Source: Candidatus Nanoarchaeia archaeon (GTDB lineage Archaea > Nanobdellota > Nanobdellia > WJKC01). From it: a stretch of DNA of 64,000 bases. Under the pieces are notes generated by a model. It was not told the DNA's origin. It was given only the letters and a program-made list of their open reading frames with translations, and searched no databases. A program made the translations under genes and the position numbers. Shown one piece after another: positions 4,431-63,179 of the stretch. Location of the stretch: positions 125,632 through 189,631 of the forward strand of contig JBAZFG010000002.1 in assembly GCA_041653515.1 (NCBI GenBank). Direction: 5' to 3'. Within the stretch, counting starts at the first letter, position 1; each line of letters begins with the position of its first letter.

Positions 4431-7279
4431 TTATTATTACCTTTAATTTTTAGTATTACAAATAAGCATAGGGCAAAGTACCCAATAATACCAATTATGC
4501 CACCAATCAATCTGTTAAGTCTTACAATAAAACCTGAAATTATGATTATAAAAAATGATAATGCAAGTAAATTATTATCAGGTTCTTTTAAAAATAAATA
4601 AATTAAATCATTTTTGATTAATTTATTACTAAATTTTTTGAGATTAGTTTTATACACTTTGATTTTTTTTGGATAATCTTTTGCATTTTTGCCATGTTTG
4701 AATGTTAATAATATGTTAAAGCAAATTATTTTGAGAGTTGATATTGTATACACAAAAAATAATTTTATATACTTATACAAGTTTTTAGTGTGATTACTTG
4801 ACAGTATTTTTGGTAATAGGGTAATAATCAATAATATTAAAGTAACTAATGAGATACTTATCCCTGCACTGTAAGTTAATTGTTCAGACTGATACAATCT
4901 AACAGTATAACTACCCGTTTCATTAATATAAAACGCATTAGCGAACCCGTTAACTACAAAATGATTAAATTTAGTGTTATTTGATTCTGCAATCCAGTCC
5001 TCATCATAACTCTCTGAAAAGACTAAGAAGAATGGTTCACTATTGTTTACGTTGATATTGTATTCGGCAGGATTGGTTTTTATGAATGAAATGTCTGCTT
5101 CATGTACTGCATTGTTGTTTTTTTGTTCTATTGTTTCTAGATCATTACTTATTGCAATACTTGCAAGAAGGGCTTCTCCATTGCTTGTAATGTTTATCCT
5201 ATCAGTTGCGCTGCCAAAATAATGCCATGCAATATCAGTTGAATTGCTTGCTATACTATTAGCAATTATACTGCCTGTAAACTTAATGTACAACCCGCCA
5301 GAAGTGTTAATTGGTATTGTAACTATTGAATTTGGCATTAATGTGATTATTGAACTGTCAATGCCGCTGGTGTAAACAACGTTGTACCACCACCAGCCAA
5401 ATGAATAATCAAATAATCTTGCCCAGCCGTTTGAAGCATTGCTTGTTGTTATGAATTCAGAAGGCTTTAATTTAGTTGAATTGATTAACTCAGAATCAAA
5501 GGTGTTGTCATTGATTTCATCAACCAGATTGACAAGCGCGCTGTCATCTTGTTGTATTGCAAAGAAAATCGCGGGTTTTGAACAATTGTAATCAAGCAGG
5601 TTGTTAATATTAGAGTCAACTAATGAGCTGTGCTCTGCAGCGTATATTACTGGAAGACTATTATTAACCTCAAAGACTTTGATATTGTTATAACTATTCA
5701 TTGTTATTTTTGTCTCGTTTAACTGGCTCTTCAAGTAATCAGTTTTAGATAAACCAAATGATGATACAACTTCAGGGTAATTCCTCGCGTATATTGAATA
5801 ATTGCCAAATTCGGAAATAAAATCATCCCTTGATATAACATACTTAATATTTAGTAGTCTTAACAGGCTGCTTAAATTTGAGTCTGACTCACTACGTATT
5901 AAATTTGATAAAAAAGCAGTAACTCTATTGGAATCTGATTCTACACTTATAACTTGATTAAGTGATGATTTTGGTGAGTATGTAATCATAGGGTCAATGC
6001 CTGCATAATCCAATCCTGTCATGCTTATTGGCTGGTCCAAAGGGAAGTAAAGAACCCTATAATCACTAGGGTCATTAATTAATGAATTAGTTATTTCTCC
6101 ATAACCATTACTCCATTGGTAATCTTGTAACTGCCCCATAAAATTTCCTGAAAATAATGGCAGCGCAAACAATATTATTGCAATTGGAAAAAGAATCCTT
6201 TTGCTTTTTAACAGGTTATAACTTGAGCCTAATAACAGTGCATAGCAGAATGCTGGGATAAACAATAAGTGCTGTGATTCCCTAAACAAGCCAATAAGTG
6301 GTATATTCAAGAATGCTTCCCCGAATGGTGGGTTTGGGCCTTTTGATAAGAACAAACCGATTGCAGTGGTTATTATAAAAAACCATATTTGTTTATCCTT
6401 TGATTTAATGTTAGGCAACAGTAGAATTAGTATTAGTGCGCCGCCACCAATTACTGGTATTAACAGCCAGTTCCATATAGCATCAACAAAATATTTGGCA
6501 CCGATTAATAATGGCACTGCAAAAAATGGAGGGGCATTTCTTGTGATTATGTCAATGCTTGTTGAATAATTAATAGTCGAACTTGACGTGCCGAAATTTA
6601 ACAATATTGGCATTAACCAGAATGAATGGGTTAATAACAAACTTGCGGATATAACTAATGAATTAAAAAATAATTTTTTATCTCTCATGAATATAGAATA
6701 ACAAATCATCAACAAAGGCACCATTATAAAGAACTGCAATTGTGTTACAGTAAAAGTTATCAGTATTATTGAGAGAATCAAATTTGTTTTATTGTCCTTT
6801 GATTTTATGAATGACAGGAATAATAATGGTGCAAGCATGTAAGAAAACAAGTAAGTGATGTGGCCTGCGACAACCCTGTTAAAAACAATTGGGTTTAATG
6901 CATATAACAATCCAGATAATATCCCTGCTTTGTTATTCTTTAAGACATGCCTGCTTAATAAAAACATAAAATAAGCACTGCAGAATACAAATGCTACTAT
7001 TAGCATTCTAGTTAAGAAAACACCCCCCAGACCTATTGAGCTTAGTAAACCAAGGCCTGCGTAAAAAAAGAAAACGCTTTGATAGTCCCATGTTGTTCCT
7101 AAATCTCTTTCATTCCATACATAAAAAAGGTTTTCTGATCCCTTGGTTATCATCTCACCAAATTGAGGTATACTCCAGTCATGTCTGTAACCAATTGCTC
7201 CATTTGCAGCCAGAATCCTCCAGGTTACAAGAATGCTTATAATGGCGAATAAGCAGATCACTAAAAAGTTCTTTCTCAC
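4427..7279 (-). CDS. large polytopic membrane protein, tandem paralog of 1701..4430
   Basis: 950 aa, multi-TM; C-terminal 'YDEDWIAE...NAFYINETGSYTVRLY' aligns with the C-terminus of the 909-aa protein. Confidence 0.45.
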   Translation of the reverse strand: MRKNFLVICLFAIISILVTWRILAANGAIGYRHDWSIPQFGEMITKGSENLFYVWNERDLGTTWDYQSVFFFYAGLGLLSSIGLGGVFLTRMLIVAFVFCSAYFMFLLSRHVLKNNKAGILSGLLYALNPIVFNRVVAGHITYLFSYMLAPLLFLSFIKSKDNKTNLILSIILITFTVTQLQFFIMVPLLMICYSIFMRDKKLFFNSLVISASLLLTHSFWLMPILLNFGTSSSTINYSTSIDIITRNAPPFFAVPLLIGAKYFVDAIWNWLLIPVIGGGALILILLLPNIKSKDKQIWFFIITTAIGLFLSKGPNPPFGEAFLNIPLIGLFRESQHLLFIPAFCYALLLGSSYNLLKSKRILFPIAIILFALPLFSGNFMGQLQDYQWSNGYGEITNSLINDPSDYRVLYFPLDQPISMTGLDYAGIDPMITYSPKSSLNQVISVESDSNRVTAFLSNLIRSESDSNLSSLLRLLNIKYVISRDDFISEFGNYSIYARNYPEVVSSFGLSKTDYLKSQLNETKITMNSYNNIKVFEVNNSLPVIYAAEHSSLVDSNINNLLDYNCSKPAIFFAIQQDDSALVNLVDEINDNTFDSELINSTKLKPSEFITTSNASNGWARLFDYSFGWWWYNVVYTSGIDSSIITLMPNSIVTIPINTSGGLYIKFTGSIIANSIASNSTDIAWHYFGSATDRINITSNGEALLASIAISNDLETIEQKNNNAVHEADISFIKTNPAEYNINVNNSEPFFLVFSESYDEDWIAESNNTKFNHFVVNGFANAFYINETGSYTVRLYQSEQLTYSAGISISLVTLILLIITLLPKILSSNHTKNLYKYIKLFFVYTISTLKIICFNILLTFKHGKNAKDYPKKIKVYKTNLKKFSNKLIKNDLIYLFLKEPDNNLLALSFFIIIISGFIVRLNRLIGGIIGIIGYFALCLFVILKIKGNNK

Positions 7280-7287
7280 AACATTTT

Positions 7288-8443
7288 TTACCTTTTTTGT
7301 GTTATAAATGTTTTCTTAACGTTGTTCAGCATGTCAGTTAACTGCAGCATTACTTTTTTGGTTGAGTATTGCTTTGCGTAAGCTTTTAGTCCTGGTCGCG
7401 GTCGCTCTTTTAGTAATTTGATTATTGCGTTAGCCCAATTAATTGCTTTATAAGGCTCGACTAACTCACCGTTTTCCTTGTTTACTAACTCGTTAAGCGG
7501 CCTGACGTTGCTGGCCAGCACTGGCTTGCCAAGAGCCCATGACTCAAGCAATACTAGTCCAAACCCTTCAACAGTGCTTGGGTTAACAACGAATTTTGAT
7601 TCACTGATTATCTTTAATTTATCAGCATGGCTGACCCTGCCAGTAAACGTAATACTGTTATTAACTCCGAGCCTGCGCGCGAGTGCCATTCACTGCTTCT
7701 TCATTGGACCATCACCAACTATTACGAACTTGGCTTTAGGGTCACGGCCGAGCACTGAAAGCATAGCCCTAATTATTGTGTTAACGTTCTTGTAGAAAAC
7801 GTGCCGGCCAATAAAACAAAACTGATTCTTGAGTCCGGCTCGCAGGTTTTTGTAATCAGCCAAGTCAATCATACAAGGCATGACTTTGATTGGCCTCCTA
7901 ATACCAGCCTTAATTAAATTATCCCTGCTGACACTGCTGATAGTGTGAATTAATGCTGGCCTGAATTTGAGGATGATTTTCTCAAGCAATGGACCCATAA
8001 TTCCGAGGCCTTTGCTGACACCTATCTGCCTGCTCCACTTACTTTAGAACGGGCCACTTGAGTAAAAATCAAAGATGCTCATCAAATGAGAGATTTTAAG
8101 AAAATAAGAAACTAAATGAGCACTGACTGCCGGCGTGTAAGTATTAGAGTGAATGACGTCGGAGTCCTTAGCAATTTTCAGGCCAGCCCTGAATGACTTA
8201 ATAATAAATGAAGCATTATTCAACAAGCTCATGTTAAGGTGGCCTTTGTAATCAATTGGCCTGTCAACCAGGTAAACTTGATGCTGTCAATCTTCTCAAA
8301 AGAAGTAGTGCCCCTTAATTGCTGGGTGATAACATTGACTTCATGCTGCGCTTAACTAACTCGCGCGCGTACTGAAAGAACAAGTACTCGCCACCCCCAT
8401 AGATTGCTGGCGGGTATAAGTGAATGAATTGAGTTATTTTCAT
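7288..8443 (-). pseudogene. degraded GT4-family glycosyltransferase (frameshifted copy of 10659..11789)
   Basis: Three collinear ORF fragments (133, 102, 62 aa) plus an N-terminal remnant 'MKITQFIHLYPPAIYGGGEYLFFQYAREL' each align to successive parts of the intact 376-aa GT at 10659..11789, with frame breaks; roughly 75-80% nt identity in aligned stretches. Confidence 0.6.
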
Positions 8444-10662: not shown

Positions 10663-11789
10663 ATTAAAGTTTTGAATATATTTTCTAGTAGTGGCGTGAC
10701 TTTCTTGGTTGAGTATTGTTTGGCGTATTTTTTTATTCCTTGTTTATTTTCTTTTAGCATCTTGTTGATTTTATTTGCCCAGTCGATTGATTTGTAAGGT
10801 TCGGCCAGGTCGCCGTTTTCTTTGTTGATTAATTCATTCATTGGCCTGACATTGCTGGCTATTACTGGTTTGCCTAATGCCCATGACTCGAGTATTATTA
10901 TGCCAAATCCTTCGACTGTGCTTGGGTTGACTACGAATTTTGATTCATTTATTATCCTTAATTTATGCTCGTGACTAACTCGGCCAGTGAATAATACGCT
11001 GCTGCTAACCCCTAATCGTCTGGCTAGTGCCATCCATTGTTTTTTCATTGGTCCGTCACCAACTATTATGAATTTGGTTTTCGGGTTCTTGCCAAGCACT
11101 GATGGCATTGCTTTGATGATTGTGTCAACGTTCTTGTAAAAGACATGCCTACCAACATAACAAAATTGGTTCTTCTCTTCAGTTCTTGGCGTCTTGTAAT
11201 CAGTTAAGTCTATCATGCAGGGCACAACTCTTATTGGTCGCTTAACGCCTGCTTTTATCAAGTCCTCTTTACTGGCGTTGCTGATAGTGTGAATCATTGC
11301 TGGCCTGATTTTTAGTATTATTTTTTCCATTAATGGCCCGATTATACTGAGCCCTTTGCTGACTCCGCGCTGACCACTCCAATTATTCCAGAAACTGCCT
11401 TGAGAGTAAACATCAAAGATGCTGATAACATGGGGTATTTTTAAGCAATAGGATACTGCGTGACCACTTAATGCTGGCGCGTAAGTGTTGGAGTGAATGA
11501 TATCAGAATCCTTAGCTATCTTTAATCCTTTTTTGAATGATTTAATGATGAATGAAGCATTGTTCATTAAACTCATATTCAAGTGGCCTTTGTAATCAAT
11601 TGGTTTGCCGACCCGATGGATTTTAACCCCGTTTAATTCTTCATAGCATTTAGTGCCTTTAAGTCGCTGAGTAATAACATTAACTTCATGGCCTCGTTTG
11701 GCTAATTCTTTAGCGTACTGGAAGAACAAGTACTCGCCGCCGCCGTAGATTGCTGGCGGGTATAATTGACAGAACTGGGTTATTTTCAT
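10659..11789 (-). CDS. GT4-family (GT-B) glycosyltransferase
   Basis: C-terminal 'NPSTVEGFGIIILESWALGKPVIAS' E-x7-E-type motif; N-terminal 'LYPPAIYGGGEY'. Confidence 0.75.
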   Translation of the reverse strand: MKITQFCQLYPPAIYGGGEYLFFQYAKELAKRGHEVNVITQRLKGTKCYEELNGVKIHRVGKPIDYKGHLNMSLMNNASFIIKSFKKGLKIAKDSDIIHSNTYAPALSGHAVSYCLKIPHVISIFDVYSQGSFWNNWSGQRGVSKGLSIIGPLMEKIILKIRPAMIHTISNASKEDLIKAGVKRPIRVVPCMIDLTDYKTPRTEEKNQFCYVGRHVFYKNVDTIIKAMPSVLGKNPKTKFIIVGDGPMKKQWMALARRLGVSSSVLFTGRVSHEHKLRIINESKFVVNPSTVEGFGIIILESWALGKPVIASNVRPMNELINKENGDLAEPYKSIDWANKINKMLKENKQGIKKYAKQYSTKKVTPLLENIFKTLI

Positions 11790-40141: not shown

Positions 40142-40178
40142 TAAGGAAATGTTAGGGTGATTAGTTTTTTAATTGTTT

Positions 40179-40339
40179 GCCCCCGCAGTTTGGAATAAAC
40201 TTTTTTCAATAAGCAGGGGGATCAGGAAATGCCTAAAACTGAGGGGGATGTGCCCCCGCGGTTTGGAATAAACTTTTTTCAATAAGCAGGGGGATCAGGA
40301 AATGCCTAAAACTGAGGGGGATGTGCCCCCGCGGTTTGG
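40179..40339. repeat. tandem direct repeat, 73-bp unit x 2.2, GC-rich hairpin element
   Basis: Units 40179-40251 and 40252-40324 differ at one position (a/g); a third partial unit 40325-40339 ends at the aglB stop codon; the reverse complement matches the elements at 57371 and 62941. Confidence 0.85.
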
Positions 40340-42958
40340 TTACCAGGCAGGACTGCCGTTATCAACCCATGGCATCATTGCAGTATAATTAATGTGATAA
40401 ATATTAATGTTGGTTGGGTCGTATTGTGATATTAATCCTCTTATGTTTAGTGAGTTACTTGAGTAGACTAATTCAAAACCAGGTATTGTTTCGTTCAATA
40501 AGTATAAGTGAGTCATGAAACGATCATTTAAGTCTGATGGGATGTGAATTAAGCCTCCTTCAATGAATTCAATACAAGAGTCAATGCCGTTAGTCTCATT
40601 AAAGTAAGTGCAGCCATTACCATAATCACAAACGCAATTGTATGGGTGAAGCGTGTTACTGCCCGTAGCTAAGTTATAAACTACTGCTTGTGGCTGACCA
40701 AAAGATTGGTCTTCAGCCATTGGTATTAAAACGTTTACTATGTAACTCTCGCCTTTAGGGAATAATACACCATCAATGATTGTGTCAGCGCCAACATAAC
40801 CTGGTGAGGCTAAGTAATTGAAAACTAGTAGTGTGCTGAATTGTTCAGGATTATACAAGTTATTATCCACTTGCTGGCTGTAAGTGTAAGGTGCGTAATA
40901 ACCTGGCCTGCCACCAATATTAGCCATCTGAACATATTTTAGTATATCATCATCCATGACTAATAAATAATTAGGCCTATTGCCTGTTTCATTATTCTTG
41001 AAGTAATCAAGTGAGTCATAAACCTCTGTCATGTTAAAGCCGCTAAACATTTGGCCGCCAATAACTTCATCCCATACTACTTGGAAGTTACCCCCATCAA
41101 CTGTTGTTGCCCGCTCGCCCATGGTTTGAACCCAGTAACCATAATCCCACCAATGAGTGAATACAGCGTTAGTGTCAGTGTTATTCCTAACCCAACTCAT
41201 TGATTCGCCCCAATCATTAGTGAAGCTTGGAATCATTGTTGAAGCATCTTCAACAATAACATAGTAACTCCATATTACTAATAGTATTGCGACTGCGTAA
41301 ATAGCTGTTGAGTAAACTTTATCACTTGTTATTTTGCTGATTAAATTATTTATCCGCTCAATAGCGTAAGCAGCTAATAACACGAATATTGGGGTGCTAG
41401 CAAAGACAATTCTTATTGCGCCCCTAGTTGCAATAACACTTAAAGCAAACCATAAGATGATTATTAGTTTACTTGGCGTTAACTCACCCCACTTACTGCT
41501 CTTATGGAATTTAATGTAAAATAATATTACTGTTAAAGCCAATAATGGCAGTGTTAGTAAGTAAGTGTTCTCAAAGAATAAATTAATTGCTTCATAACCG
41601 TTTAAGTTAACGAATTTGCTAAACATGAAGAATAAGATGAACACAGTAAACATTATCACTACTGATGTGGCTTTCTTGCCAAACTTACCTAATACTTCTT
41701 GAACTAATAATGCTCCACCAATAACAAATAATGGCACAAACCATTGAAGCCTATGCCACCAGTCAACCCCGTTAGGGTCATAGAACCATGGGGCTTGGTT
41801 TTCAGTAACTGAGACGCAGAAAGCACAAGTGCCAAAAGGGTTTAGTATTGTATCAAGAGCGCCTTGTAGTTTGGCGCCAACATCAAATAATCCAGTTAAT
41901 TGCATTACTGGCAGACCAACCATTATTAATACTGCCATCATTATTACGAAATAAAAATTATCAGGCCACTTCTTGTTCTTGATTAAGTTACTGATGAATA
42001 AATCATAAACAATTTTTAATCCAAGCACTAACGCTGTGATAGTTGGTATTAAGAACATATCAATCATGATTAAACCAAAACCATTATAGCGCAGGGTCAT
42101 TGTAGCGTTCATTAATATTATTGGGATGAACCACGCAAAGTAAGTGATTACGTTTTTATTGCTTAATTTACCCATTAAAGCAAGGAATAGGAATGCTAAG
42201 CCAATGCTGAAGAATAAGAAGTTAGCCCCACCCCAAGTCAGGCTTGATAAGCCAGCTAATACGCCTGATATTAACCCGTAAATTAATGCTTGTTTAGTCT
42301 TATTTGCCCTAATTGATTTGACTAATGCATAAATCATGCTAAACCAAAAGACTGTTGCAAGCGCTTCCTTATCACTAAACCCTGCCATGGTCCTGAATAA
42401 ATATGATGGGATTAATGATAAAAACGCTGTGGCAATTAACGCTGTTTTCTTGTTGAATATTTCTTTAGTCATTAAGAAAAAGAATATCATGCTTATTACA
42501 AACGCAACAACTGGGTAAATCATTGAATAACTCATTAGTTCGCCGCCAAATAATGGGTGAAATATTGTGTATAATCCTGCAACAAAGTAAGACACTAATT
42601 GGTGCTCCTTGAAAGTGCTAAAACCTTCTGGAAAATAACGAAATGAATCCATTTCAGGCAGGGTGCCCTGCTCCACTAGTGTTTCAGTGTAGCGGTAAAA
42701 AACATACGGGTCAAGACCAAGCAATAAACCATTGTATAATGGTATGCTTAGCATCCTAACCCAAGCCCCAACTAATATAATACTAATTAATGCTGCGTAT
42801 AATATTATCTTCTTATTTTCTTTGAGGAATTTTACTGCTTCGCCAAAATTAAGTTCATCCTCATCAGTGGTTGCTGGTTTTTTCTCTTTCTTATCACTGC
42901 TAAACCAGCCTTTAATCTTTCGCCCTATCTCCCCGAAATCAATTTCTTCATCACTCAA
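40340..42958 (-). CDS. aglB: archaeal oligosaccharyltransferase AglB (STT3 family)
   Basis: 'FTHWWDYGYWVQTMG' canonical WWDYG motif; N-terminal 'GLDPYVFYRY' first-loop DxD-type motif; ~13 TM helices plus a C-terminal soluble domain. Confidence 0.85.
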   Translation of the reverse strand: MSDEEIDFGEIGRKIKGWFSSDKKEKKPATTDEDELNFGEAVKFLKENKKIILYAALISIILVGAWVRMLSIPLYNGLLLGLDPYVFYRYTETLVEQGTLPEMDSFRYFPEGFSTFKEHQLVSYFVAGLYTIFHPLFGGELMSYSMIYPVVAFVISMIFFFLMTKEIFNKKTALIATAFLSLIPSYLFRTMAGFSDKEALATVFWFSMIYALVKSIRANKTKQALIYGLISGVLAGLSSLTWGGANFLFFSIGLAFLFLALMGKLSNKNVITYFAWFIPIILMNATMTLRYNGFGLIMIDMFLIPTITALVLGLKIVYDLFISNLIKNKKWPDNFYFVIMMAVLIMVGLPVMQLTGLFDVGAKLQGALDTILNPFGTCAFCVSVTENQAPWFYDPNGVDWWHRLQWFVPLFVIGGALLVQEVLGKFGKKATSVVIMFTVFILFFMFSKFVNLNGYEAINLFFENTYLLTLPLLALTVILFYIKFHKSSKWGELTPSKLIIILWFALSVIATRGAIRIVFASTPIFVLLAAYAIERINNLISKITSDKVYSTAIYAVAILLVIWSYYVIVEDASTMIPSFTNDWGESMSWVRNNTDTNAVFTHWWDYGYWVQTMGERATTVDGGNFQVVWDEVIGGQMFSGFNMTEVYDSLDYFKNNETGNRPNYLLVMDDDILKYVQMANIGGRPGYYAPYTYSQQVDNNLYNPEQFSTLLVFNYLASPGYVGADTIIDGVLFPKGESYIVNVLIPMAEDQSFGQPQAVVYNLATGSNTLHPYNCVCDYGNGCTYFNETNGIDSCIEFIEGGLIHIPSDLNDRFMTHLYLLNETIPGFELVYSSNSLNIRGLISQYDPTNINIYHINYTAMMPWVDNGSPAW

Positions 42959-42965
42959 TTTAACA

Positions 42966-43784
42966 TCATACTCCTAATGAAATGTAAACCTCTAATAATC
43001 CCCCGATTATTAATACAATGCTTGCAAGCACTATTAAATCAATGGAATCAAGTAATACCTCTTTAAATTTATTACTCTTAGGGTCATGCCTTATTACTGC
43101 TGCACTAATAATGCCTCCTGCAATGCCTGCGAGGAAGTAAGCAATTAATTCTGGCAGACCATGAACTAAGTAACGACCAAACCCTAGTGGCACTGCCTGA
43201 AAATAAGAAGACCAATTACTAATATTGGTTTTAATTGCGTTGCCAATAGCGACGCCGAGCACGCTTGAGTTCCACGTGATAATAAATATTGCGCCCGCCC
43301 CGTATAATAAGCTAAATATTAAGCAGAAGAGTAATACTTTGAAGTTATTGGCTAATATTATTTTTAATAAATCTGTTTGCACTGCATTGCCTTGAATGGC
43401 TGATGAGTTAATGCTTCTGATAGTGTTTATTTGCTCTGAGAATATTTTTGCGTTAAGGCTGTCAGGCATTATGACATACCATGTGGTGAATGTTATTAAT
43501 AATCCCATTGACATGAAGAATATTACGCCGAGCACATCTTTATGATTGCCAATTAAGGGGTATTGTTTTTTGGTGAAATCCTCTGATTCCTCTCGTTTTA
43601 GCACGTTAACTAGTAATGGCACGCCAGCCATTGTTGTAAGAAAAACCATACTTAATGACGGGTCTGATGGGAATAACCACATGCTGACTACTAAGCCAAG
43701 GCTCGCGTATATCACGCCTAATATTGTCATTTTCCAAGGCTTGGCTCTAACTTCTTTACTGCTTAATATTGACTCAAAAACCAT
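42966..43784 (-). CDS. integral membrane protein (SpoIIM/DUF95-like)
   Basis: 272 aa, about six hydrophobic helices; no catalytic motif recognised. Confidence 0.35.
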   Translation of the reverse strand: MVFESILSSKEVRAKPWKMTILGVIYASLGLVVSMWLFPSDPSLSMVFLTTMAGVPLLVNVLKREESEDFTKKQYPLIGNHKDVLGVIFFMSMGLLITFTTWYVIMPDSLNAKIFSEQINTIRSINSSAIQGNAVQTDLLKIILANNFKVLLFCLIFSLLYGAGAIFIITWNSSVLGVAIGNAIKTNISNWSSYFQAVPLGFGRYLVHGLPELIAYFLAGIAGGIISAAVIRHDPKSNKFKEVLLDSIDLIVLASIVLIIGGLLEVYISLGV

Positions 43785-44838
43785 TAATCACCTCTAATTT
43801 TCGGCTCCTGCCTTGGAATCCTTCGCCAGTATCAGTTGCTTTGATTAGTCCTTGTTTTCTTAATCGGTTAATGTAGCGCCTAAAACTCCTAATGCTTAAT
43901 TCGCCATGTATCTCGCGGTAATTCTTGTAAGCATCGCCGCTAATAATATTAGGGTTCTCTTTTATGATGTTAATTATTTTTTCTTCATGGTCGCTTAATT
44001 CCTGAGGTAAGTTAATAGTTATTGTCTTAATTGCTTCTTCAACGTGCTTGACTGTTATTTTCCTGCTAGCATCCCGCTCAGCCCTGCGTCCAGCTTCTAA
44101 TAATAAGTTGATTGCTTTCCTAACATCTGTGCCTGAATTAATACTTACTTCATGGACTACTCCTTCGCTTACAACACTTGGGTGGAACGCTTGTTTGGCC
44201 CTGCGTTCAATAATGTTTTTCATCTCGCGCGTAGTGTATGGCTTGAACTCCATGTTATTAAGGTTTAATCGCGACATTAATCGTGGTTCAATATAATTCT
44301 TGTACTTAGGGTTGTTAGTGACCATTAAGATGCATACCCGTTCTAAGTTTAGTAATGAGTATATTATGTCAAGGTCTTTTATTTTATCCACTTCATCAAG
44401 GCAGACTACTGCTCCTTTTTCCCTTAGTTTTCTCATCGCGTTATTAAGTATTTCTTCGGTCGGCACACCTTTAGGGGGATAGAGCATGCCTAATCGTCGC
44501 GCTATCTCTAAAGCTATTGTGTGAGTGGTCTGGCTTTCCCAGCAATTAATGAATACTGGTACAATATCGCTGGTCTCTTTTAATTCGTTAAAAATATATT
44601 TGATGCTCGCTGTCTTGCCAAGCCCAGGCATGCCGTGGATGAATACATTACTCCCTAAGCGATTTTGTAATAATGGTTTGATGAAACTAGCTATTTCTTT
44701 AATCTCATTGTCCCGTTCAGGCATTTCTTCTGGTTGGAATTTATAATCGAGAATAGTTTCATCCTTGAACAAAGTCTCGTTGTCCATCAGGATATCTTTG
44801 AATAAGCCCCCCATAATAGTAAGGGACACGCTAATCAT
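43774..44838 (-). CDS. orc1: Orc1/Cdc6 replication initiator (AAA+)
   Basis: Walker A 'GMPGLGKTAS'; 'VCLDEVD' Walker B; C-terminal winged-helix region. Confidence 0.85.
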   Translation of the reverse strand: MISVSLTIMGGLFKDILMDNETLFKDETILDYKFQPEEMPERDNEIKEIASFIKPLLQNRLGSNVFIHGMPGLGKTASIKYIFNELKETSDIVPVFINCWESQTTHTIALEIARRLGMLYPPKGVPTEEILNNAMRKLREKGAVVCLDEVDKIKDLDIIYSLLNLERVCILMVTNNPKYKNYIEPRLMSRLNLNNMEFKPYTTREMKNIIERRAKQAFHPSVVSEGVVHEVSINSGTDVRKAINLLLEAGRRAERDASRKITVKHVEEAIKTITINLPQELSDHEEKIINIIKENPNIISGDAYKNYREIHGELSIRSFRRYINRLRKQGLIKATDTGEGFQGRSRKLEVINGF

Positions 44839-56823: not shown

Positions 56824-57300
56824 TTAAATAATATATTTCTCAAACAAGTTGCCTGGTCCTTTACTTGTTTTATAAAGCGTGTGTTTTTTTAGCCAATTAA
56901 TTAAGTTCATAGTTTTCTTATTATTAGTTAAGTGCAAGCCCCATGTTGATGGGTCACAAATGTATTCTTCTTCTTGATAAGTAAATTTATTCCAAACGTG
57001 ACTTAATGGTTCATTAAAGAACTCATTTGTAAGTAAGTAATTTCTGCCTTCAATGATTTTATTGTAAGCTTTACCCATTATCATAATTGTTTTAAATTGT
57101 TTATTCTCTGATAAGACGTTGTTTAGGAATTGTGCGAAGTGATTGCATAAACCTCCTTTATTTATGAATTCATTAGTGGTGGTTTCCCAATTATTTGGCG
57201 CGCAATAAGGGATATTAGCAATCGTTTCTTCAAGAAATAATTCTAATTCCTTTATGTTATTTATTTTTTTATGATAAGTGTTGTCAATTATATCATTCAT
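56824..57300 (-). CDS. transglutaminase-like cysteine peptidase domain protein
   Basis: Putative Cys-His-Asp triad in order: 'GGLCNHFAQF', 'SHVWNKF', 'ICDPSTW'. Confidence 0.4.
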   Translation of the reverse strand: MNDIIDNTYHKKINNIKELELFLEETIANIPYCAPNNWETTTNEFINKGGLCNHFAQFLNNVLSENKQFKTIMIMGKAYNKIIEGRNYLLTNEFFNEPLSHVWNKFTYQEEEYICDPSTWGLHLTNNKKTMNLINWLKKHTLYKTSKGPGNLFEKYII

Positions 57301-57336: not shown

Positions 57337-57488
57337 TTAGAAATCACTGAGTTTTTTCTGCTTAGTCCCTAACCGCAGGGAGGGGTGACCCCTCCCTTCA
57401 GTTTTAGGGTAATCCTGATTCCCACCCCCCTACGATTGTAATTATGCCAGAGACATGTTAGAAATCACTGAGTTTTTTCTGCTTAGTC
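57337..57488. repeat. GC-rich hairpin element (57371-57430) bracketed by a perfect 31-bp direct repeat (57337-57367 / 57458-57488)
   Basis: 'ttagaaatcactgagttttttctgcttagtc' occurs twice; the second copy is the last 10 codons plus stop of nucS; between them lies 'aaccgcagggaggggtgacccctcccttcagttttagggtaatcctgattcccacc'. Confidence 0.8.
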
Positions 57489-58210
57489 TTATCAACTATG
57501 TTCCTGTTTGGTGGTTCTACTTGGCAGAACTTAAAGCTCCAGTCATGGAGCATTTGTTCAGCGTTCTTAGTGATGCCTGGCGCTGCGATGTAACCAATGA
57601 CTTTGTCAATTCCTTTAGCTGCCTTGATTCTCTCAACGTAGCGCCTTAGTTGTTGGACCGCGCTAAGCCCGGCAGTCACTCGCTTACACTCAATAATTAT
57701 TAATGCTCCTTCACCATCATGGCCCATCACGTCAATAAAACCATATTTTGTTTGTTCTTCAAGGCTGACTGGCCTAAAGTCAATGCTAATAATATGTGGG
57801 TGCTCATAAATCATGCGCGCCATGTCAGCTTCACTGCCCATAATCATTACTTCTTCATCATCGCTTAGTTGGCCTGAGATTAGTAAGTCAATGCTGGTTA
57901 TTTTAATGACCATTTGTTCTCTTGGGTTGATTGATTCAGCAGTGATGAATAATGAGTCGCCAGCTTCAACCCTGATGCTCGCGCCTTCTTTTATCCAGTT
58001 AACTGGGTTCCTGCCTGTTGGTTTGTGAACTAATAGTGTTTTGTCTGTTTTGATGGTGACTGCCCTGCCGCCCCGCTCGAGCTTTGAGTAAGCCCTGCCT
58101 TCATACTTAACCTCGCACTCGCAGTAAAGTGTGATTAACTCGTTTCGCTTGAGTGCTTGGTCTAATACGTTCTTGGTTGTATCAAAATCAGGTTTAACAT
58201 AATTGCTCAT
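57458..58210 (-). CDS. nucS: endonuclease NucS/EndoMS
   Basis: C-terminal RecB-like nuclease motif 'GFIDVMGHDGEGALIIIECKR'; N-terminal dimerisation/ssDNA-binding-like region. Confidence 0.7.
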   Translation of the reverse strand: MSNYVKPDFDTTKNVLDQALKRNELITLYCECEVKYEGRAYSKLERGGRAVTIKTDKTLLVHKPTGRNPVNWIKEGASIRVEAGDSLFITAESINPREQMVIKITSIDLLISGQLSDDEEVMIMGSEADMARMIYEHPHIISIDFRPVSLEEQTKYGFIDVMGHDGEGALIIIECKRVTAGLSAVQQLRRYVERIKAAKGIDKVIGYIAAPGITKNAEQMLHDWSFKFCQVEPPNRNIVDKTKQKKLSDF

Positions 58211-62791: not shown

Positions 62792-62935
62792 GGGCCCGTA
62801 GCGCAGTTTGGATAGCGCGACAGGCTTCTACACTCGACGCTTCGCGTCTCGTTCCGTCCTTCGGACGGCCGCTCGCTTAAAACGAGCGGGGGTGAGGATA
62901 CCTGTAGGTCGTGGGTTCAAATCCCTCCGGGCTCG
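62792..62935 (+). tRNA. tRNA-Arg(TCT) with 69-nt intron at canonical position 37/38
   Basis: Acceptor GGGCCCG/CGGGCTC, D-stem GCGC/GCGC, anticodon stem ACAGG/CCTGT separated by 'CTTCTA'+intron+'A'; T-loop TTCAAAT; one T-stem mismatch; the intron carries two hairpins (ccgtcc-ttc-ggacgg; gctcg-cttaaaa-cgagc). Confidence 0.7.
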
Positions 62936-62940
62936 CACGA

Positions 62941-62995
62941 AAACCGCAGGGAGGGGAGACCCCTCCCTTCAGTTCATCTCCTGATTCCCACCTCC
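62941..62995 (+). repeat. GC-rich hairpin element, copy immediately 3' of tRNA-Arg
   Basis: 'aaccgcagggaggggagacccctcccttcagtt...cctgattcccacc' is nearly identical to 57371-57430; 9-bp stem agggagggg/cccctccct. Confidence 0.8.
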
Positions 62996-63179
62996 TTGAC
63001 AATTTGCGCCAGGGGTGCTGAAATATTAATCTGCACGAAGTTTTGGATGATTAGTCCAATTTACTCCGGGCTCACACTCAAACTCGGCTACGCCTCGTTT
63101 TCGTTCTGTTTCGCTAGAAGGCTTGTTGTTTTTTAGAGCTACAAACTTATAATTATTAATTGCATTGTTTTTTAACTGG

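What the first reader, a model, noticed from the sequence alone, without database searches (positions are those of the whole stretch)
57337..57488. Hairpin element 3' of nucS flanked by a perfect 31-bp duplication of the nucS 3' end
'ttagaaatcactgagttttttctgcttagtc' occurs at 57337-57367 and 57458-57488. The second copy encodes the last 10 codons and stop of nucS. The 90-bp segment between them carries the conserved element with a perfect 9-bp stem (agggagggg-tga-cccctccct). A duplication of a gene terminus bracketing a small element looks like an att-type footprint of site-specific integration or excision at a gene 3' end, or a MITE-like insertion with an unusually long target duplication.
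Basis: seen in the sequence. Interest (0 to 1): 0.65.

Follow-up and report, generated by a model that had tools for sequence, protein, structure and literature searches.

The report
Small mobile hairpin element beside nucS
The duplicated end of the nucS gene marks a recent insertion of a 90-base non-coding mobile element; it belongs to a large family, which I could not find described, that is spread through the tiny DPANN archaea, has a three-stranded (triplex-type) sequence design, and duplicates unusually long stretches of its target.

Summary
A perfect 31-bp direct repeat (57337-57367 and 57458-57488) brackets a 90-bp segment with a 9-bp G/C hairpin, and one copy is the 3' end of nucS.

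A relative with 90% identical NucS has the same two genes with one copy of the repeat and no element. The 121 bp is therefore an insertion with a target duplication.

The element has relatives in the window: B, after tRNA-Arg, with a 14-bp duplication and empty sites in two relatives; and C, tandem copies at 40178-40341. More than 110 further copies were found in DPANN archaea of several phyla.

Of 113 copies, 43 carry flanking repeats of 14-49 bp, each a different sequence; mismatched controls never exceeded 13 bp. The left end is sharp (C-Y-R-AACCGC). The right end varies. There are no terminal inverted repeats.

A pyrimidine tract after a conserved mini-hairpin follows the hairpin's purine arm in parallel (C for G-C, T for A-T), which is a triplex code.

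No integrase, transposase or reverse transcriptase lies in the window. There was no Rfam match and no paper was found.

The att-site reading is rejected. "MITE-like with a long duplication" is close. The mechanism is inferred, not shown.

The parts
57458..57488 (-). Target-site duplication, gene-proximal copy: the last 9 codons plus stop of nucS. It keeps nucS intact.
   Evidence: alignment to the empty site
57337..57367 (-). Target-site duplication, distal copy: an orphan copy of the nucS 3' end that still adjoins the original intergenic and promoter region of the downstream gene.
57368..57457 (+). Inserted element A (90 bp, motif on the + strand, antisense to nucS). Layout: leader CCT 57368-70; AACCGC 57371-76; hairpin P1 57377-85/57389-97 (loop TGA); TCAGTT 57398-403; 9-nt loop TTAGGGTAA 57404-12; TCCTGAT 57413-19; third strand TCCCACCCC 57420-28; tail 57429-57, which ends inside the 5' arm of the second hairpin that copy B has.
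   Evidence: (nhmmer E=4e-13)
57458..58210 (-). nucS (EndoMS) gene, 250 aa, left intact by the insertion.
56824..57300 (-). Downstream 158-aa gene. Its homolog follows nucS directly in the relative L002.
62939..63063 (+). Element B (125 bp), same subfamily as A, beginning 4 nt after tRNA-Arg(TCT). It has the second hairpin that A lacks.
62925..62938 (+). Target-site duplication of B, copy 1: the last 11 nt of the tRNA plus 3 nt (CTCCGGGCTCGCAC).
   Evidence: empty sites in L003 and L005
63064..63077 (+). Target-site duplication of B, copy 2 (CTCCGGGCTCACAC, 1 mismatch).
62792..62935 (+). tRNA-Arg(TCT) with an intron of about 70 nt: the target of insertion B.
40178..40341 (-). Element C: two 73-nt tandem units plus a 16-nt partial third unit of a related subfamily (stem GGGGG/CCCCC, loop CACAT), directly after the stop codon of an STT3-like gene.

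Best explanation
Shown: the 121 bp at 57368-57488 (the 90-bp element plus one repeat copy) is a recent insertion of a small, non-coding, non-autonomous mobile element into the last 31 bp of nucS. The insertion duplicated its target, so nucS kept a complete 3' end, and the orphan copy stayed attached to the promoter region of the next gene.

Shown: the element belongs to a multicopy family found almost only in DPANN archaea. Its core of about 55 nt reads 5'-C-Y-R-AACCGC / purine-rich arm / loop / pyrimidine arm / TCAGTT / 9-nt loop YNARGNTNY / TCCTGAT / pyrimidine tract. The last tract follows the purine arm in parallel orientation, which is a triplex code. It fits a pyrimidine-motif triplex on this strand or a purine-motif triplex on the complementary strand.

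Inferred mechanism: a single-stranded copy of the element (RNA, SINE-like, or ssDNA) with a fixed end at C-Y-R-AACCGC is copied into a staggered break. A target 3'-OH primes the synthesis. The junction at the fixed end is often made through 2-6 nt of microhomology (..CC, ..CCG, ..GAACC). Filling in the stagger gives the 14-49 bp duplication. The hairpin/triplex core would be the part recognised by the machinery, which has not been identified. Copy A lacks the second hairpin and is antisense to nucS, so it is probably inert.
For: Insertion:
- L002 (NucS 90% identical) has nucS, one copy of the 31-mer region and the homologous downstream gene, with no element.
- L003 and L005 also lack it.
- Copy B is absent after the orthologous tRNA-Arg(TCT) in L003 and L005.

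Family:
- A strict pattern hit more than 114 stretches in GTDB genomes, 112 of them archaeal and almost all DPANN, with up to 7 copies per genome.

Target duplication is a family trait:
- 43 of 113 copies have flanking repeats of 14 bp or more with at most 1 mismatch; 0 of 104 mismatched controls do.
- In 34 copies the repeat ends 12 nt or less (mostly 0-4) before AACCGC, and the repeats are different host sequences.

Sharp left end, variable right end:
- Position -3 is C in 105 of 113 copies and position -4 is unconstrained.
- Seven copies in one genome lose similarity exactly there.
- Insert lengths range from 43 to 194 bp.

Microhomology:
- Repeats ending in ..GAACCG..GAACC..GCCC or ..CCG abut the element.

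Structure:
- 784 of 808 stem positions are Watson-Crick pairs across very different stems.
- The third strand has C opposite G-C in 527 of 547 cases, and T opposite A-T in 77 of 84 cases at the base and 44 of 58 internally.
- The observed score was 689, against 571 +/- 7 in permutations.
- In asymmetric stems 635 positions fit a parallel reading and 465 an antiparallel one.
- None of these positions was constrained by the search pattern.

Non-autonomous:
- No protein family is enriched near the copies.
- There is no mobile-element gene in the window.
Against: - No enzyme has been identified. No reverse transcriptase, nuclease or transposase was found in the 64 kb or next to the copies, so every mechanistic step is inference.
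- 60% of copies show no detectable flanking repeat. They may be old insertions, or they may have arisen another way.
- Runs of 4-7 C+.G-C triplets are unstable at neutral pH, so the triplex may form only on the complementary strand as DNA, only with a protein, or not at all.
- The triplex is supported only by covariation.
- AACCGC, TCAGTT and TCCTGAT were fixed by my search pattern, so their invariance in the GTDB set is by construction.
- Tandem and partial copies (C, L006, L016, L039, L065) are not explained by simple insertion.
- T-rich right ends occur in only about 13 of 30 copies, and intergenic DNA is AT-rich in any case.
Confidence: 0.6

Rival explanations
1. A classical DNA transposon derivative (MITE). 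A transposase encoded elsewhere in the genome cuts the target with a long, variable stagger and pastes the element in, as reported for IS1630 and IS1634 of mycoplasmas (recalled from memory).
For: The element is small, non-coding, multicopy and flanked by target duplications. A published survey reports IS200/IS605, IS1634 and other IS families in archaea, including Micrarchaeota (PMC13343696).
Against: There are no terminal inverted repeats. The right end is not conserved even within one genome. Duplications span 14-49 bp. No transposase lies in the window or is enriched near copies. No longer parent element sharing the ends was seen.
Confidence: 0.17
2. Templated insertion by host polymerases alone. 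During fork restart or break repair a nascent 3' end switches by microhomology onto the structured element, copies it, and returns behind its point of departure. This gives insert plus duplication with no dedicated enzyme.
For: Duplications are of variable length, the left junction shows microhomology, the stop point on the right varies, and no element-encoded or linked protein was found. Bacterial intrastrand-triplex repeats are linked to local genome instability (PMC4666352).
Against: A random repair error does not explain conservation across several phyla of a 55-nt core with conserved unpaired bases (A3, G5, T7 of the 9-nt loop; C at -3). It also does not explain why copying always starts at the same nucleotide.
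Confidence: 0.12
3. An att-type footprint. A larger integrative element entered the 3' end of nucS by site-specific recombination and later shrank to 90 bp, leaving attL and attR.
For: A direct repeat restores the gene's 3' end, as in tRNA-targeting integrative elements. A second copy sits at a tRNA 3' end.
Against: Each copy has a different repeat sequence and length. There is no integrase in the 64 kb. The same 55-nt core lies between the repeats in more than 100 loci. The pattern hits in 2.9 M viral contigs did not match the family profile.
Confidence: 0.04
4. An artefact or local event: an assembly error at a k-mer-sized (31) repeat, or a slippage duplication unrelated to the element.
For: 31 is a common k-mer length. 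Tandem copies of the family exist (window C, L039, L065).
Against: The independent Logan contigs break at the 31-mer on both sides, as expected for a true two-context repeat. The same architecture, with other repeat lengths, occurs in dozens of independent assemblies. The empty site lacks the whole element, which a local duplication cannot create.
Confidence: 0.03

Closest known systems
Prokaryotic MITEs (non-autonomous derivatives of insertion sequences)
   Same: Small (43-194 bp), non-coding, multicopy, intergenic, flanked by duplications of the target, and dependent on functions supplied in trans.
   Different: No terminal inverted repeats. Duplications of 14-49 bp with variable length, against a fixed 2-10 bp (PMC11602168). 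Only one end is defined. No parent IS was found.
Eukaryotic SINEs and target-primed reverse transcription (for example tRNA-derived SINEs, Alu)
   Same: Variable-length target duplications, no inverted repeats, one sharply defined end and one variable end, junction microhomology, physical linkage to tRNA genes, and a conserved structured core that could be the recognition element.
   Different: This is an archaeon, and no LINE-like reverse transcriptase or endonuclease is known or found here. There is no A-tail and no internal promoter. An RNA intermediate has not been shown.
PIT / TMECO / BoxC intrastrand-triplex repeats of bacteria (Holder et al. 2015, PMC4666352)
   Same: G/C-rich three-block motifs in which the third block obeys a triplex code. 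They are multicopy, intergenic, of unknown function, and associated with local rearrangement.
   Different: Here the second 'loop' is a conserved mini-hairpin region of about 23 nt, and conserved flanks are present. The bacterial motifs were not found to be mobile, whereas this family has target duplications and empty sites.
IS1630 (IS30 family) and IS1634 of mycoplasmas (recalled from memory, not checked here)
   Same: Long target duplications of variable length. IS1630 is reported to target hairpins at gene 3' ends.
   Different: Those are autonomous elements of more than 1 kb with a transposase gene and inverted repeats.
tRNA-gene-targeting integrative elements (tyrosine-integrase att sites)
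   Same: A direct repeat of a gene's 3' end leaves the gene intact. Many copies sit at tRNA gene ends.
   Different: There is no shared att core between copies and no integrase. The inserts are 43-194 bp. Both orientations and many non-tRNA targets occur.
REP/BIME with RAYT, and IS200/IS605-derived palindromic elements
   Same: Small G/C hairpin repeats in intergenic DNA, probably acting as single-stranded structures. IS200/IS605 is common in Micrarchaeota (PMC13343696).
   Different: Those systems insert without any target duplication. This family duplicates 14-49 bp.

Membership tests
MITE (IS-derived) | Terminal inverted repeats matching a parent IS | tested here: not met
   The ends CCTAACCGC... 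and ...GCCAGAGACATG are not complementary. Right ends are unrelated among copies.
MITE (IS-derived) | Short target duplication of fixed length | tested here: not met
   14-49 bp across 34 copies; 31 and 14 bp within this one window.
MITE (IS-derived) | Autonomous partner with the same ends in the genome | tested here: inconclusive
   None in the 64-kb window, none near 112 copies, and no kb-scale repeats around copies. Whole genomes were not searchable.
SINE-like retroposon (TPRT) | Target duplications of variable length, without inverted repeats | tested here: met
SINE-like retroposon (TPRT) | Reverse transcriptase and endonuclease supplied by a partner element | tested here: inconclusive
   No RVT-type domain among the 48 window ORFs. 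The rest of the genome was not available.
SINE-like retroposon (TPRT) | RNA intermediate with defined ends | not testable with these tools
   No transcriptome data. Indirect hints only: 8 copies start 1-5 nt after a tRNA 3' end on the same strand, and some copies end in a hairpin plus T-run.
Site-specific integrative element (att duplication) | The same core sequence in the element and in every target | tested here: not met
   Flanking repeats differ in sequence and length between copies.
Site-specific integrative element (att duplication) | Integrase gene within or beside the element | tested here: not met
   The element is 90 bp, and there is no integrase in the window.
IS200/IS605-type hairpin elements and REP/RAYT | Insertion without target duplication, next to a short fixed target motif | tested here: not met
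   Long duplications, and an empty site with a single copy of the target.
Intrastrand triplex motif (ITxF / TMECO type) | Three consecutive blocks in which the third obeys the triplex code relative to a Watson-Crick hairpin | tested here: met
   G-C to C in 527/547 and A-T to T in 121/142. Permutation gave 689 against 571 +/- 7. Parallel 635 against antiparallel 465.
Intrastrand triplex motif (ITxF / TMECO type) | Short loops (1-6 nt) between blocks, and the TMECO consensus | tested here: not met
   The second connector is TCAGTT + 9 nt + TCCTGAT, about 23 nt. The sequence is unrelated to CCCTCNCCC...GGGNGAGGG.
Intrastrand triplex motif (ITxF / TMECO type) | Physical triplex formation | not testable with these tools
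   Needs CD, NMR or melting studies. ViennaRNA models only the hairpin.
Casposon / Cas1-type integration | Inverted repeats and a duplication of fixed length (about 14-15 bp, or one CRISPR repeat; from memory) | tested here: not met
   Variable duplication and no inverted repeats. No Cas1 in the window.
Any Rfam RNA family (including known self-cleaving ribozymes) | Match to a curated covariance model | tested here: not met
   The only gathering-threshold match in the window is the tRNA. Around the element the best match has E=0.93, a chance microRNA hairpin.

The most novel reading that the evidence does not exclude
The family is an archaeal counterpart of SINEs. In this reading it is a small structured RNA, released for example by tRNA 3' processing or by self-cleavage just upstream of C-Y-R-AACCGC, whose 5' triple-helix domain is recognised by an unidentified DPANN reverse transcriptase or polymerase and copied into nicked DNA. 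That would be the first target-primed retroposition system in a prokaryote, and a natural nucleic-acid triplex that is required for mobility.
Probability: 0.2. Interest if true: 0.9.

Novelty: new variant of a known kind. Interest (0 to 1): 0.74.

Why it matters
DPANN archaea have genomes of about 1 Mb with little spare DNA, yet carry up to at least seven copies of this element per genome.

- **An unexplained mode of movement.** The combination of a 55-nt core conserved across phyla, a triplex-type base code, one fixed end, and target duplications of 14-49 bp fits none of the prokaryotic transposition mechanisms considered here. It points either to an unrecognised enzyme system or to a structure that exploits host replication or repair.
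- **A natural test case for triplexes.** The third-strand covariation gives a system in which to ask whether nucleic-acid triplexes have a biological role.
- **Practical use for annotation.** The family explains many odd duplicated gene and tRNA ends, tandem units and long tRNA "introns" in DPANN assemblies. It also offers insertion polymorphisms as strain markers.

Tried and rejected
- **Known RNA family:** cmscan of the window at gathering thresholds, and of the element at E up to 10, found nothing relevant.
- **tRNA or tmRNA-like element:** ARAGORN found nothing at the element.
- **Viral or plasmid vehicle:** a relaxed pattern gave 28 IMG/VR contigs, but none matches the family profile.
- **Subfamily copies in JGI metagenomes:** the exact A/B hairpin gave 0 hits.
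- **More close nucS relatives:** The search for related loci gave only distant ones.
- **Autonomous partner:** clustering 1345 ORFs around 112 copies showed only housekeeping genes. A long-range repeat search found no kb-scale elements. Pfam scans of 48 window ORFs found no mobile-element gene.
- **Watson-Crick alternative to the triplex:** pairing of the third strand with CCGC plus the 5' arm reaches 7 bp or more into CCGC in only 3 of 106 copies.
- **HDV-like, hammerhead, BHB and C/D-box readings:** checked by eye against the consensus, and none fits.
- **tRNA CCA-primed origin:** the bases between the discriminator and the element are not CCA.
- **L067 and L105 as independent insertions at one site:** the alignment shows one orthologous insertion with a decayed repeat.
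- **Gene-orientation bias:** crude ORF calls showed none, and the analysis is unreliable.
- **Literature:** six full-text searches, including the motif strings themselves, found no description of the family.

Full report
**1. The observation**

The 31-mer TTAGAAATCACTGAGTTTTTTCTGCTTAGTC is present exactly twice, at 57337-57367 and 57458-57488. No occurrence is expected in shuffled sequence. With one mismatch the repeat is 33 bp.

The second copy is the 3' end of a 250-aa minus-strand ORF (57458..58210) with Pfam NucS_N and NucS_C. It covers the stop codon, nine sense codons and one further base.

The 90 bp between the copies holds a perfect 9-bp hairpin, AGGGAGGGG-TGA-CCCCTCCCT, at 57377-57397.

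An independent k=31 assembly of run SRR18595300 gives one contig that stops at bases 1-30 of the 31-mer. It gives another that starts at bases 2-31 and continues into the downstream gene. This is the break expected when a k-mer really occurs in two contexts. I therefore treat the arrangement as real, although I could not map reads.

**2. It is an insertion**

NucS homologs place the organism among DPANN archaea; sources name them Woesearchaeota or Nanoarchaeota.

- The closest relative, L002 (NucS 90% identical), has nucS, a single copy of the 31-mer region, about 46 bp of intergenic DNA and then the homolog of the window's 158-aa downstream gene. It has no element and no duplication.
- Two more distant syntenic relatives, L003 and L005, also lack it.

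So 121 bp (the element plus one repeat copy) was gained in the window's lineage. The perfect identity of the repeats argues that this was recent. Both neighbouring genes remain intact.

**3. The element is one of a family**

The window holds three further relatives.

- B (62939-63063) starts 4 nt after an intron-containing tRNA-Arg(TCT).
- C1 and C2 are two 73-nt tandem units, followed by a 16-nt partial unit, at 40178-40341 on the minus strand. They lie directly after the stop of an STT3-like gene.

B is flanked by CTCCGGGCTCGCAC and CTCCGGGCTCACAC, a duplication of the tRNA 3' end. The orthologous tRNA-Arg(TCT) genes in L003 and L005 run straight into a T-rich trailer with no element. B is therefore a second verified insertion with a target duplication, this time of 14 bp.

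- 112 of the stretches are archaeal. Most are labelled Micrarchaeota or Aenigmatarchaeota. Others are Iainarchaeum, Altiarchaeales, Woesearchaeota, Nanoarchaeota or Nanobdellati. A few are labelled only "archaeon", Methanobacteriota or Halobacteria.
- One genome holds up to seven copies.
- Two Spirulina hits look like chance matches.
- The 28 viral-contig matches to a looser pattern do not fit the family profile.

**4. Anatomy**

The consensus, written on the strand on which A lies, is:

C-Y-R-AACCGC / purine-rich 5' arm / loop / pyrimidine 3' arm / TCAGTT / 9-nt loop / TCCTGAT / pyrimidine tract / variable tail.

The motifs AACCGC, TCAGTT and TCCTGAT were fixed by my pattern, so their constancy in the GTDB set is by construction. 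They are, however, shared by the independently found copies A, B and C. The features below were not constrained by the pattern.

- **The hairpin.** Its sequence differs widely between copies (GGGGG, GGGAAACC, GGGGAGGG, GGGGCGGGGG and others), yet 784 of 808 stem positions are Watson-Crick pairs.
- **Position -3.** It is C in 105 of 113 copies, while position -4 is unconstrained.
- **The 9-nt loop.** It has this length in 99 of 113 copies, with A3, G5 and T7 nearly invariant.
- **The tract after TCCTGAT.** It follows the purine arm base by base in the same 5'-to-3' direction.
  - It has C where the stem has G-C in 527 of 547 cases.
  - It has T where the stem has A-T in 77 of 84 cases at the stem base and 44 of 58 internally.
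  - No rule holds at C-G pairs near the loop.
  - The match (689) exceeds every one of 1000 permutations (571 +/- 7).
  - In asymmetric stems the parallel reading fits 635 positions against 465 for the antiparallel reading.
  - A Watson-Crick alternative, pairing this tract with CCGC plus the 5' arm, is long in only 3 of 106 copies.

This is the code of a pyrimidine-motif triplex (C+.G-C, T.A-T) on this strand. Equivalently, it is the code of a purine-motif triplex (G.G-C, A.A-T) on the complementary strand. The short TCAG/CTGA hairpin would return the chain to the base of the stem.

Runs of protonated C are unfavourable at neutral pH. The purine-motif form on single-stranded DNA may therefore be the physically relevant one. 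A comparable G/C-rich purine-type motif from E. coli does form a triplex in vitro (PMC4666352). Triplex formation here is inferred from covariation only.

**5. Insertion signature across the family**

- Of 113 copies with enough flanking sequence, 43 have a direct repeat of 14 bp or more (at most 1 mismatch) between the 60 nt upstream and the 220 nt downstream of the core. None of 104 controls pairing flanks from different loci did (maximum 13).
- In 34 copies the upstream repeat ends 0-12 nt (usually 0-4) before AACCGC.
- Repeat lengths are 14-49 bp, and inserts are 43-194 bp.
- The repeats are different host sequences: ends of protein genes, tRNA 3' ends from the trailer to the T-loop or T-stem (L023, L051, L068, L072, L075, L100, L110), and tRNA 5' ends to the D-loop (L021, L065).
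- Seven similar copies in one Micrarchaeota genome lose similarity exactly at the C of CCGAACCGC on the left. On the right they share a second long hairpin.
- Copy A ends inside the 5' arm of the second hairpin that B retains, so A is truncated at its right end.
- The shortest flanked insert that is not part of a tandem array (L025, 56 bp) is little more than the triplex core.
- When the repeat reaches the element it typically ends in ..CC..CCG or ..GAACC(G). This is microhomology with the element's own left end.
- There are no terminal inverted repeats.

**6. Links to tRNA genes**

26 of 133 profile hits lie within -300/+400 nt of a predicted tRNA.

- Eight start 1-5 nt after the 3' end of a tRNA on the same strand, B among them.
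- At least two sit as canonical-position introns of tRNA-Ser genes, antisense to the tRNA, with the intron's 3' end coinciding with the element's sharp end (L027, L078). L042 and L060 look the same by eye.

I cannot separate targeting from the simple fact that tRNA flanks are among the few tolerated sites in these compact genomes.

**7. What moves it**

Nothing in the data identifies the enzyme.

- The 48 window ORFs of 150 aa or more are a large glycosylation cluster, radical-SAM proteins, Cdc6, FEN1, aminoacyl-tRNA synthetases and similar. None is an integrase, transposase, Cas1 or reverse transcriptase.
- Around 112 GTDB copies, only housekeeping genes recur.

The signature is one fixed end, one variable end, junction microhomology, long variable duplications and no inverted repeats. 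It is best explained by copying a single-stranded template into a staggered break, primed from a target 3'-OH. Two versions fit:
- target-primed reverse transcription of an RNA (SINE-like);
- the same process on single-stranded DNA.

I give this class of mechanism about 0.6, and the RNA version about 0.2-0.3. The rivals are:
- a DDE-type element with an unusually long, variable stagger (0.17);
- enzyme-free template switching during repair (0.12);
- an att footprint (0.04);
- an artefact or local slippage (0.03).

Tandem units and partial second copies (C, L006, L016, L039, L065) remain unexplained. They could come from unequal crossing-over between duplications, from slippage at the structure, or from more-than-unit-length copying.

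**8. Comparison with what is known, and novelty**

The family behaves like a non-autonomous mobile element, but it fails the defining tests for each of the following:
- MITEs;
- att-type integrative elements;
- IS200/IS605 and REP elements;
- casposons.

It meets the structural definition of an intrastrand triplex motif, but it differs from the bacterial PIT/TMECO repeats in architecture and in showing mobility. It has no Rfam match.

Six full-text searches, including searches for the motif strings, found no description. That library holds open-access papers only, so prior description elsewhere cannot be excluded.

I rate it a new variant of a known kind (a small non-autonomous mobile repeat). 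The reading that it is categorically new, a prokaryotic SINE-like system that depends on a triplex, is not excluded.

Noticed in passing
window 62792-62935 (+): tRNA-Arg(TCT) with an intron of about 70 nt. ARAGORN in default mode missed it, while Rfam and ARAGORN with introns allowed found it. The ortholog in L003 appears to carry two insertions, and the one in L005 has none.
   Followed up: partly
window 40178-40341 (-): 2.2 tandem copies of a 73-nt unit of the same element family, 99% identical. The third, partial unit stops in the hairpin loop. L006 and L016 show the same 'flank plus 5' arm' partial repeat.
   Followed up: partly
window 7347-8443 vs 10694-11789: Two segments of about 1.1 kb, 73-82% identical and 3.3 kb apart, lying in or beside glycosyltransferase-type genes. 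This looks like an old local gene duplication within a cluster of about 40 kb encoding glycosylation, radical-SAM and STT3 genes.
   Followed up: no
L027 and L078 (also L042, L060): Family members make up the whole canonical-position intron (101-106 nt) of tRNA-Ser genes, always antisense to the tRNA. In L078 the intron ends form a 7-bp inverted repeat, CGGAACC/GGTTCCG.
   Followed up: partly
L064 about 5150-5600 (-), L118: A Bilamarchaeaceae genome has arrays of a tandem repeat of about 54 nt (CTCAGGGTTTTGGGAACCTTTTGCCCTTAGAAAACC...). The element has inserted into them repeatedly at the same point (..TTGCCC|G).
   Followed up: no
L099 440-760: Three family copies lie side by side. Two have decayed stems and carry CCTGAC instead of CCTGAT. 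This suggests repeated insertion at one hotspot, or a variant subfamily (also seen in L043, L065 and L074).
   Followed up: no
L028 about 1450-1492: A divergent copy has TCGGTT...CCCGAT in place of TCAGTT...CCTGAT. This is a compensatory A-T to G-C change in the proposed 4-bp helix, and the only such case seen.
   Followed up: no
window 43774-44838 (-): An Orc1/Cdc6 gene. No origin-type repeats were looked for nearby.
   Followed up: no
L014, L037 (Spirulina): Two cyanobacterial contigs match the strict pattern with an unrelated, non-hairpin spacer. They are probably chance matches, or a different repeat shared by the two Spirulina genomes.
   Followed up: no
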